From an uncultured Pseudomonadota bacterium (lineage in GTDB: Bacteria > Pseudomonadota > Alphaproteobacteria > Rs-D84), in assembly GCA_902771095.1 (NCBI GenBank), contig CACXVH010000005.1:8085-72084 (forward strand): a DNA stretch of 64,000 bases. Direction: 5' to 3'. The notes under the pieces are model-generated. The model worked only from the letters and a program-made list of their open reading frames with translations, did no database searches and was not told the origin of the DNA. Shown in pieces: positions 21,129 to 23,012 of the stretch (position 1 is its first letter; the number at the start of each line of letters is the position of its first letter). The translations under genes and the position numbers were made by a program.

Positions 21129-23012
21129 ATGGATATGGAAAAAACAGCAGACCTTTTTATTCGCGCACAACACGCAGATTTGTTGAAAAAACTTAATGCG
21201 TGGGATATTGCGTACCATCAAAATGATGCGCCAATCGTTGATGATGCAACCTATGACGATGCCAAAACGCAAATCTTGGAAATGGAAAAAGAATATCCAG
21301 AACTGGCGAAAAACGGCTATTCTACACATGTTGGCGCGGCGGTATCAAATAAATTCAAATCTTTCCCGCATACCATACCAATGCTTTCTATTTCCGATGT
21401 GTTTAATGAAAGTGAGGTTTATGATTGGTTCAAAAAACTAACATCCAAAGATTTATTTGTTGAGGTCAAGGTTGATGGTCTTTCTTTTTCCGCGCGTTAT
21501 GAAAACGGTGTTTTGGTGCGCGGGCTTACGCGGGGCAGCGGAACGATGGGCGAAGACATCACCGCAAATTTAAAAACTATTTCTGATATCCCACAAAAAT
21601 TATCTGGTAATTTTCCAGAGATTATAGAAGTTCGTGGCGAAGTTTATATGTCGCGCGCGGACTTTATCGCATTGAACGAAAGTTCAAATAAGAAATTTGC
21701 AAACCCCAGGAATGCCGCTGCTGGTTCTTTGCGTCATTTGCCGCCTTTTCTTTTTCAGGACCTACACGGTGCGCTATCACCTGTATCCTTCCGGGGCGGA
21801 CGGGAGCGTGCCCGCCGTGATCCAGGCCGAACCGGAGGAGCCGGGCATCGTCCGGATCGGCGGGTACAGCATTTCGGGCAATAGCTGCAAGAAAAAATGG
21901 GCGCGCGCGCAAACAGTCCGCGTTGGGAAATCGCTTATAAATTCCCTGCGGCGCGTGGAATTACAAAATTAAACGGTATAACGGTTCAGGTTGGACGAAC
22001 TGGGGTTTTAACGCCTGTGGCAGAATTGGAACCGATTAACATTGGTGGGGTTTTGGTATCGCGTGCTACATTACATAATGCTGATGAAATTGCGCGTTTG
22101 GGTGTGCAAGTCGGCGACAAAGTAACTGTGCAACGGGCGGGTGATGTCATCCCACAAATTGTAAATGTCGCAGAAAAGGGCGAAAACAGTGAACCCTATG
22201 TTTTCCCAGATGTTTGTCCGGTCTGTGGCGGCGCTGTTGTTCGTGAAAGCGGTATGGTGGCATATCGTTGCGTGAATTCTTTATCTTGTCCGGCGCAAAT
22301 TCGTGGCGAATTGGAACATTTTGTATCGCGTCATGCCTTTGATATCGAAGGTTTGGGTGCGCGACAAATTGAATTATTTGTGAATCTTGGCTGGATAAAG
22401 GCGCCGGCGGATATATTCACATTGATTGAAAAACATGGCGAAGAATTGATGAACATGGACGGTTTTGGGGCAAAATCTGTGTCTAATTTAACAGATTCAA
22501 TAAATCGCGCGCGCAATATTGATTTACATCGTTTGATTTATGCAATTGGGATACCAGATGTTGGCGAAGTGACCGCAAAAATATTGGCGCGTGAATTTGG
22601 CGCGATAGAAAATTTGCGCAATGCTGGTTCGTGGAAACTGGAAAAAATAGACGGTATCGGCGAAGTTATGGCGGATGAAATCGTGTCGTTTTTCCATGAT
22701 GAACATTCAATGCAAGCACTTGATAATTTATTAAAACACATAAACATAAAGAATCCAGTAAAGGTTTCTGTGGAAAATAATATTTTAAAAGATAAACGCG
22801 TGGTGTTAACAGGGACTTTGTCTAAATATACCAGGGACGCGGCCAAAGAAATACTGGAAAACCTTGGCGCGCGGGTCAGCGGAAGTGTGTCTTCAAAAAC
22901 AGATATTGTAATAGCAGGGGTCGAGGCAGGTTCTAAATTGACAGACGCACAAAAATTAGGTATAACAATATGGTCAGAGGAAGATTTCGATAACGCAATC
23001 GGGGAGAGATAA
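21129..23012 (+). pseudogene. ligA: NAD-dependent DNA ligase LigA, interrupted by a GC-rich patch with an in-frame TAG (21882-21884)
   Basis: The N-terminal part has the KVDG adenylation lysine (VEVKVDGLS) and [13 protein letters not shown]. Homology resumes at [22 protein letters not shown], followed by OB, Zn-finger (CPVCGG...C), HhH and BRCT (VVLTGTL...) regions. About 85 aa of the adenylation core are replaced by unrelated sequence. Confidence 0.8.

What the first reader, a model, noticed from the sequence alone, without database searches (positions are those of the whole stretch)
21739..21884. About 146-bp high-GC foreign patch with an in-frame TAG replaces the adenylation-domain core of ligA
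- LigA homology runs cleanly through [13 protein letters not shown], ending at about 21738.
- It resumes at [22 protein letters not shown] from 21885, in the same reading frame.
- The stretch between is unrelated to LigA, whose motifs III-V, including the DGVV(I/L)K-type segment, are missing.
- The gap is about 40 codons shorter than expected by comparison with E. coli LigA.
- It ends in TAG (21882-21884).
- By my hand count, 21761-21880 is about 68% G+C (82 of 120) in an AT-rich genome.
- In the +1 frame the patch reads ...[41 protein letters not shown]. This loosely resembles the start of a Listeria-Bacteroides-type surface repeat from a high-GC organism.

Candidate explanations are a chimeric metagenomic assembly, a recent illegitimate-recombination or HGT event that inactivated an essential gene (implying a second ligase), or an unknown small insertion element.
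Basis: partly seen in the sequence, partly recalled or inferred. Interest (0 to 1): 0.6.

Follow-up and report, generated by a model that had tools for sequence, protein, structure and literature searches.

The report
Assembly chimera inside ligA gene
The GC-rich 147-bp stretch that seems to break the essential DNA ligase gene is a piece of another rumen microbe's gene spliced in by the metagenome assembler, and the organism's real ligA is intact, so this is an artefact.

Summary
Window 21737-21883 (147 bp, 62.6% G+C in a 38.3% window) is unrelated to ligA. It replaces 258 bp of it and leaves an in-frame TAG at 21882-21884.

It is not biology:
- Run X1 matches the whole 64-kb window at about 7x depth with two single-letter differences, so it is the source sample or strain.
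- In X1, the flanking contigs carry authentic ligA sequence past both edges of the patch.
- In X1, the patch lies on a separate 157-bp, 3x contig that continues into a different gene.
- Every other assembly of the same strain or species has an uninterrupted 664-aa LigA, with 258 bp at this place. These are L001-L004, L008-L010 and contigs of runs X3 and X7.
- The patch is 100% identical over 168 bp to the 5' end of a 483-aa DUF218 membrane-protein gene. That gene sits on a metagenome contig of about 59-66% G+C (L005), and the patch's sampled words are fully present in at least 20 ruminant gut runs.
- The left joint is an exact 21-bp word shared by both genes (21716-21736). The right joint is blunt, and the TAG is made by the joint itself.

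Verdict: an inter-genome chimeric misassembly at a local coverage gap. No pseudogene, no insertion element, and no need for a second ligase. Interest is low.

The parts
21132..21736 (+). Authentic 5' part of ligA. It covers domain Ia and the first half of the adenylation domain, through ...[13 protein letters not shown] plus the first two bases of the next codon.
   Evidence: 0 differences from intact ligA of L001/L003/L010 over 605 bp. Pfam DNA_ligase_aden profile positions 2-146 of 253. X1 contig of 787 bp at depth 8.2 ends at 21736 followed by ATTAAATC, the true continuation.
21716..21736 (+). Left joint: the 21-bp word CGCTGCTGGTTCTTTGCGTCA, present identically in ligA and in the foreign DUF218 gene.
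   Evidence: Foreign contigs (X44, X41, L005) match the window from 21716 on, and ligA contigs match up to 21736.
21737..21883 (+). Foreign patch of 147 bp. It is part of the 5' end of a 483-aa DUF218 membrane-protein gene from a high-GC rumen organism. It stands in place of 258 bp of ligA.
   Evidence: 100% identical to L005 (minus strand) over window 21716-21883. Sampled words fully present in at least 20 ruminant gut runs. In X1 it lies on a separate 157-bp contig at depth 3 that continues CCCTCAGCCTGCG... after 21883. 62.6% G+C against 38.3% for the window.
21882..21884 (+). TAG stop created across the blunt right joint (21883|21884): TA is foreign and G is ligA.
   Evidence: Sequence and boundary computation. 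There are no shared letters at this joint. A 42-mer across it is absent from the GTDB representative genomes, and a 64-mer across it is in no indexed run (only 2 sampled words).
21884..23012 (+). Authentic 3' part of ligA: the end of the adenylation domain with motif V, then OB fold, Zn finger, HhH and BRCT.
   Evidence: 0 differences from L001/L003/L010 over 1129 bp. Pfam domains. The X1 contig of 3074 bp at depth 7.1 carries 188 further bases of true ligA before 21884, ending ...GGGTTGGTTATCAAGGTTAATTCTGTTGC.

Best explanation
The patch is an inter-genome chimeric misassembly in the deposited contig. It is not a feature of the organism.

The organism is a low-GC rumen alphaproteobacterium sequenced at about 7x, and it has a normal 664-aa NAD+-dependent LigA.

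**Shown**
- In the source sample, reads over a stretch of about 62 bp of ligA just after 21736 were too sparse to assemble.
- At that point ligA shares an exact 21-bp word with the 5' end of a DUF218 membrane-protein gene from an unrelated organism of about 59-66% G+C, present in the same sample at about 3x.

**Inferred**
- A small-k de Bruijn step walked from ligA through the shared word into the foreign gene for 147 bp. IDBA-UD, used for single-sample assemblies in the study that contains the matching run, starts at k = 20 by default. That default is from my memory, not from a tool result.
- The chimeric contig end was then butted, without overlap, onto the next ligA contig, probably at a scaffolding step. 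This dropped 258 bp of real sequence.
- Both 147 and 258 are multiples of 3, so the frame is kept by chance.
- The TAG is an accident of the blunt joint.
For: 1. **X1 is the source sample or strain.** Its contigs tile the whole window (1-64000) at depth about 6.4-8.4, with only two single-letter differences (one unplaced in 10639-11753, one at 55891).
2. **X1 supports true ligA at both edges.** The 787-bp contig (depth 8.2) passes 21736 into ATTAAATC. The 3074-bp contig (depth 7.1) holds 188 bases of true ligA, including the DGLVIKVNSVA coding sequence, before 21884. The patch (21756-21883) is on a separate 157-bp contig of depth 3 that goes on into foreign sequence.
3. **Other runs have the longer, intact form.** Near-identical contigs in two other studies (X3 at depth 22, X7 at depth 6) join 21736 to 21884 through 258 letters that are not in the window.
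4. **Independent assemblies are intact.** L001, L002, L003, L004 and L010 have exactly 258 bp between the anchors, with 0-2 differences in the remaining 1734 bp of ligA. L008 and L009 also encode a 664-aa LigA. There are 664-aa proteins at 99% identity.
5. **The patch has a known foreign home.** Window 21716-21883 is 100% identical to L005, inside a 483-aa ORF with Pfam DUF218, on a contig of 59-66% G+C. A contig from another run of the same study (X44, 694 bp) shows the same foreign continuation on both sides.
6. **Joint anatomy fits an assembler.** There is an exact 21-bp shared word on the left and a blunt joint on the right.
7. **The assembly methods fit.** The study used IDBA-UD for single samples and MEGAHIT with k of at least 27 for co-assemblies (PMC6785717). 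The k87 co-assembly contigs (L001, L002, L010) are intact.
8. **The chimeric product is not seen elsewhere.** The chimeric 250-aa product is not on record in the gene collection. The right-joint 42-mer is in no GTDB representative genome.
Against: - Only Logan contigs could be laid on the window, not raw reads. Contigs drop rare variants, so a minor recombinant subpopulation cannot be strictly excluded.
- The window's own assembly record and assembler were not identified directly. The link to IDBA-UD is inferred from the matching run and study.
- Bases 21737-21755 are covered by no X1 contig. The reads that supplied them were below Logan's k-mer threshold or came from another library.
- The blunt right joint is not what a pure de Bruijn path produces. 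It needs an extra, unverified scaffolding or gap-handling step.
Confidence: 0.95

Rival explanations
1. Real pseudogene. In a strain in this sample, illegitimate recombination replaced 258 bp of ligA with 147 bp acquired from a high-GC neighbour, using the 21-bp identity on one side. This would inactivate ligA, so another ligase would have to supply its function.
For: The patch is real DNA from a co-resident organism. A 21-bp identity could in principle seed recombination. Raw reads were not available, so a rare variant cannot be excluded.
Against: At the full depth of the flanks, contigs of the source-sample run carry authentic ligA across both edges. The patch contig has lower depth (3 against 7-8) and runs on into the foreign gene after 21883. 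Every other assembly of the strain or species is intact. No indexed run holds the sampled words across the right joint. LigA is essential in bacteria (established knowledge), and nothing suggests a replacement.
Confidence: 0.03
2. A small mobile or insertion element (MITE-like or novel) inserted into ligA.
For: Foreign composition and sharp boundaries.
Against: It replaces 258 bp rather than inserting. There are no terminal inverted repeats and no flanking direct repeats. There is only a single copy in the window. It is an internal piece of a protein-coding gene, a DUF218 protein, read in that gene's frame. In its native context the sequence continues on both sides as that gene.
Confidence: 0.005
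3. The error arose before assembly. A chimeric library molecule or read (template switching or ligation during library preparation) joined ligA to the foreign gene, and the assembler faithfully used it.
For: It would explain sequence 21737-21755, which is in no X1 Logan contig. PCR template switching at a 21-bp identity is a known route to chimeric molecules (established knowledge).
Against: A single chimeric molecule would not normally pass an assembler's minimum k-mer count. It also does not explain the blunt second joint back into ligA. This rival is still an artefact and does not change the verdict.
Confidence: 0.015

Closest known systems
Inter-genome chimeric contigs (misassemblies) from short-read metagenome de Bruijn assemblers and scaffolders
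   Same: Two organisms are joined through a short shared k-mer at a low-coverage spot. Composition and depth jump abruptly at the joints. The joint is absent from the sample's own independent contigs and from all other assemblies of the species.
   Different: The foreign piece is very short, about the length of one read, and is embedded inside a gene with return to the same gene. The second joint is blunt, and the reading frame is preserved by chance. Together these make it mimic a biological replacement.
NAD+-dependent DNA ligase LigA (E. coli LigA, PDB 2owo)
   Same: The real gene of this organism (P0001, 664 aa) has the full LigA architecture. It aligns end to end with E. coli LigA (E = 8e-159).
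   Different: The window's copy lacks the 86 residues equivalent to E. coli about 209-295, which include motif IV. This is only because of the assembly error.
DUF218 (PF02698) membrane proteins (YdcF/SanA/ElyC-type domain)
   Same: The donor ORF on L005 has a C-terminal DUF218 domain (E = 1.6e-23) and an N-terminal hydrophobic anchor. The patch is its residues 12-60.
   Different: Only a non-functional N-terminal fragment of 49 codons is present in the window. The donor protein's N-terminal region had no relatives in the protein database or in the GTDB representatives.

Membership tests
Chimeric misassembly | Joints are not supported by sequence data of the source sample, and the true sequence is supported instead. 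| tested here: met
   X1 contigs (only two single-letter differences from the whole window) continue with true ligA past 21736 and before 21884. No contig spans either joint. This is contig-level evidence only; raw reads are not available.
Chimeric misassembly | The two sides of each joint belong to different genomes. | tested here: met
   The flanks belong to a 38% G+C alphaproteobacterial MAG lineage. The patch belongs to a DUF218 gene on a 59-66% G+C contig, with different continuation on both sides. Depth is 3 against 7-8.
Chimeric misassembly | Independent assemblies of the same strain lack the joint. | tested here: met
   L001-L004 and L010 have 258 bp of ligA in its place. L008 and L009 encode a 664-aa LigA. 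X3 and X7 contigs also carry 258 letters there.
Chimeric misassembly | The joint lies at a shared word of about assembler k size. | tested here: inconclusive
   The left joint is an exact 21-bp shared word. The right joint has no shared letters. The assembler of the window was not identified directly.
NAD+-dependent DNA ligase (LigA) | Full domain set (Ia, adenylation, OB, Zn finger, HhH, BRCT) with motifs I, III, IV and V. | tested here: met
   Met for the organism's real gene, P0001. Not met for the window's sequence as deposited, where the adenylation-domain match stops at profile position 146 of 253.
Pseudogene by recombination or HGT | The disrupted allele is carried by the population at the depth of its flanks. 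| tested here: not met
   Flank-depth contigs of X1 carry the intact sequence on both sides. The patch contig is at depth 3 and leaves into the foreign gene.
Insertion sequence, MITE or other small mobile element | Terminal inverted repeats, target-site duplication, multiple copies, and insertion without loss of target DNA. | tested here: not met
   No TIR or direct repeats at the ends. Single copy in the window. 258 bp of target is missing. The patch is an internal coding fragment.
Listeria-Bacteroides repeat (Flg_new, PF09479) | Significant match of the patch-encoded protein to the repeat profile. | tested here: not met
   The full donor ORF matches only DUF218 in Pfam. The Flg_new matches in the window belong to the neighbouring gene, 19172-21073.

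The most novel reading that the evidence does not exclude
A minority subpopulation in this rumen sample really carries a ligA allele in which 258 bp were replaced by 147 bp from a high-GC neighbour's DUF218 gene, through recombination at a 21-bp identity. That would be a snapshot of a very recent, presumably lethal or complemented, inter-phylum gene-fragment transfer into an essential gene.
Probability: 0.02. Interest if true: 0.55.

Novelty: not a real feature. Interest (0 to 1): 0.05.

Why it matters
It matters only as quality control.

- A public MAG contig appears to carry a broken essential gene because of a 147-bp inter-genome chimera. Annotation pipelines would call ligA a pseudogene or two fragments. 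A naive reading would infer gene loss, HGT or an alternative ligase.
- The case shows how a shared 21-mer plus a local coverage gap at about 7x depth can plant a read-length foreign fragment inside a gene. Because the frame is preserved, it looks biological.
- GC outliers of about one read length inside conserved genes are a cheap screen for such errors.

Tried and rejected
- **Protein search with the 75-aa foreign peptide.** No candidate was found in the 5.8-billion-protein database. The donor gene's N-terminus is apparently not in the gene catalogue.
- **The search for related loci with the same peptide in GTDB representative genomes.** 600 pattern matches, none confirmed. The donor species is therefore not identified. 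An exact 30-mer scan of the JGI/NCBI metagenome contigs then gave one contig, L005.
- **Look-up of the chimeric 250-aa product in the gene-position collection.** Not on record, so the window's own deposited record and its assembler could not be named.
- **Search for runs holding the right joint.** Only 2 sampled words, no run. This is weak negative evidence.
- **Exact 42-mer across the right joint in GTDB representatives.** None found.
- **Mobile-element reading.** Rejected: no TIR or TSD.
- **Listeria-Bacteroides repeat reading of the patch.** Rejected.
- **Exact reconstruction of how the blunt right joint arose.** For example, a scaffolder trimming a contig by an estimated negative gap. This could not be tested. 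A simple positional overlay does not reproduce the observed coordinates: 147 bp of patch against a right contig that starts 188 bp before 21884.

Full report
**1. What is in the window**

A LigA reading frame starts at 21132 (MDMEK...) and reads cleanly through ...[13 protein letters not shown]. It then turns into unrelated sequence and stops at TAG 21882-21884. In the same frame, [22 protein letters not shown]... resumes and continues to the normal LigA C-terminus at 23012.

The patch is 62.6% G+C against 38.3% for the window. It is the only place in the 64 kb where a 147-bp window reaches 60% (profile).

**2. Exact boundaries, and what should be there**

A protein search found many 662-664-aa LigA proteins. 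Four are 99% identical and 664 aa long, from alphaproteobacterial MAG-type sources. Their DNA was fetched as L001-L004, and as L008-L010 through a neighbouring gene.

L001, L003 and L010 are identical to the window over all 605 bp of ligA before 21736 and all 1129 bp from 21884 on. L002 and L004 differ at 1-2 positions. Between those two points they carry 258 bp where the window has 147 bp.

So the foreign stretch is 21737-21883 (49 codons), replacing 86 codons. Both lengths are multiples of three, which is why the frame is kept. The TAG is made of two foreign bases plus the first returning ligA base.

Aligned to E. coli LigA (2owo, E = 8e-159), the missing residues correspond to about 209-295. 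By my knowledge of the Shuman-lab motif nomenclature, that stretch includes motif IV (DGLVIK). Motif I (KVDG), motif III (EVRGEVY), the two arginines in [12 protein letters not shown] and motif V (AYKFPA) are all still present. Pfam sees the adenylation domain stop at profile position 146 of 253.

**3. Where the patch comes from**

The sampled words of the 147 bp are fully held by at least 20 public runs, 19 of them labelled as gut or other metagenomes (cattle, goat and sheep among them). Two of them are metatranscriptomes.

Contigs from those runs match the window from 21716 to 21883 without a difference and then diverge on both sides. Before 21716 they read ...CAGCGGCACAG, and after 21883 they read CCCTCAGCCTGCGCGTCATTCCGGAAAAGC. 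One of these contigs is a 694-bp contig from another run of the same study as the source sample.

An exact-word scan of metagenome contigs returned L005 (3791 bp, 59-66% G+C). There the same 168 bp are part of the 5' end of a 483-aa ORF: [40 protein letters not shown]... It has an N-terminal hydrophobic anchor and a C-terminal Pfam DUF218 domain with E = 1.6e-23.

It is not a Listeria-Bacteroides repeat. The Flg_new matches in the window belong to the gene upstream of ligA.

The donor species was not identified. The peptide has no relatives in the protein database or in the GTDB representatives.

**4. Real allele or artefact**

Run X1 (bovine gut metagenome, 2019) holds 89% of the sampled words of the region. 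Its contigs tile the entire window at depth about 6.4-8.4 with only two single-letter differences, so it is the source sample or the very same strain. One of its contigs appears under the name logan:ERR3220211.

In X1:
- The 787-bp contig covering 20958-21736 (depth 8.2) continues after 21736 with ATTAAATC, which is the true ligA continuation.
- The 3074-bp contig covering 21884-24769 (depth 7.1) has 188 further bases before 21884, ending ...GGGTTGGTTATCAAGGTTAATTCTGTTGC. This is the true ligA sequence encoding motif IV.
- The patch (21756-21883) lies on a separate 157-bp contig of depth 3 that continues into the foreign gene.

Contigs of two other studies (X3 at depth 22, X7 at depth 6) join 21736 to 21884 through 258 letters that are not in the window.

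No X1 contig spans either joint. The sampled words across the right joint are in no indexed run. A 42-mer across that joint is in no GTDB representative genome. The chimeric 250-aa product is not on record in the gene collection.

About 62 bp of true ligA just after 21736 are missing from X1's contigs, which indicates a local coverage gap exactly where the error sits.

**5. Likely mechanism**

*Shown:* ligA and the foreign gene share the exact 21-bp word CGCTGCTGGTTCTTTGCGTCA (21716-21736). The right joint is blunt.

*Inferred:* at a low-k stage an assembler followed the shared word out of ligA into the foreign gene. It did so because the true path was interrupted by the coverage gap. The chimeric end was later butted onto the next ligA contig, probably during scaffolding or gap handling, with loss of the real 258 bp.

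The study that contains the matching run assembled single samples with IDBA-UD and co-assembled with MEGAHIT at k = 27-87 (PMC6785717). From my memory, IDBA-UD starts at k = 20 by default and carries small-k contigs forward. The k87 co-assembly contigs (L001, L002, L010) are intact, as expected if 21 shared bases are too few for k of at least 27.

A rough estimate suggests chance 21-mer identities are common. With about 1.1 Gb of contigs in the sample, about 5e-4 matches are expected per 21-mer. That amounts to on the order of a thousand over a genome assumed to be about 2.5 Mb (the genome size was not measured). This is inference. Such identities only matter at coverage gaps.

I could not identify the window's own record or reproduce the blunt joint from a specific algorithm.

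**6. Rivals**

- **A genuine recombinant pseudogene** is not excluded at the level of a rare variant, because only contigs could be examined and not raw reads. All flank-depth data in the source sample support the intact gene, so it is very unlikely.
- **A mobile element** is excluded. There are no terminal inverted or direct repeats and only a single copy. It is a replacement rather than an insertion, and it is an internal coding fragment.
- **A library chimera** rather than a graph error is possible. It is equally an artefact.

**7. Verdict**

The finding is a correct and well-described observation of an assembly artefact. The organism's ligA is intact, and no second ligase or novel element needs to be invoked. 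Novelty: not a real feature. Interest is low, apart from quality control of the MAG.

Noticed in passing
window 19266-19293 and 28111-28136 (also L001 1138-1165, L006 6455-6480, L007 6045-6070, L008 8182-8199): Two (AC)13-14 microsatellites, each preceded by the same 20-nt motif GCTGAAACCCGCAGAAACCT. One lies at the 5' end of a surface-protein gene that matches Flg_new, the other shortly upstream of a gene with a faint Flg_new hit. A motif-identical repeat in L008, whose position could not be matched to either window locus, has 9 copies against 13-14 in the window, L001, L006 and L007. This is a candidate slipped-strand phase-variation switch. Logan contigs of X1 break at both sites.
   Followed up: partly
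window 35792-36121 (-): Permuted (two-piece) tmRNA with tag peptide AANDNVRFAMAA. This fits an alphaproteobacterial origin for the window.
   Followed up: no
L006 start (equivalent to 227 bp before window 21884); L007 start (inside the ligA 3' part): Two other long assemblies of the same species (42.8 kb and 63.6 kb contigs) also begin inside ligA. This gene region is therefore a recurrent contig breakpoint in rumen assemblies.
   Followed up: no
window 55891; window 10639-11753: These are the only letter differences between the window and the X1 contigs: A in the window against C in the contig at 55891, and one unplaced difference in 10639-11753.
   Followed up: no
window 18670-19336 and 16002-16668: Depth spikes in X1 and sister runs: 42x at 18670-19336, and 10-31x at the tRNA-Ala/tRNA-His locus at 16170-16422. 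These indicate sequence shared with other community members or repeats.
   Followed up: no
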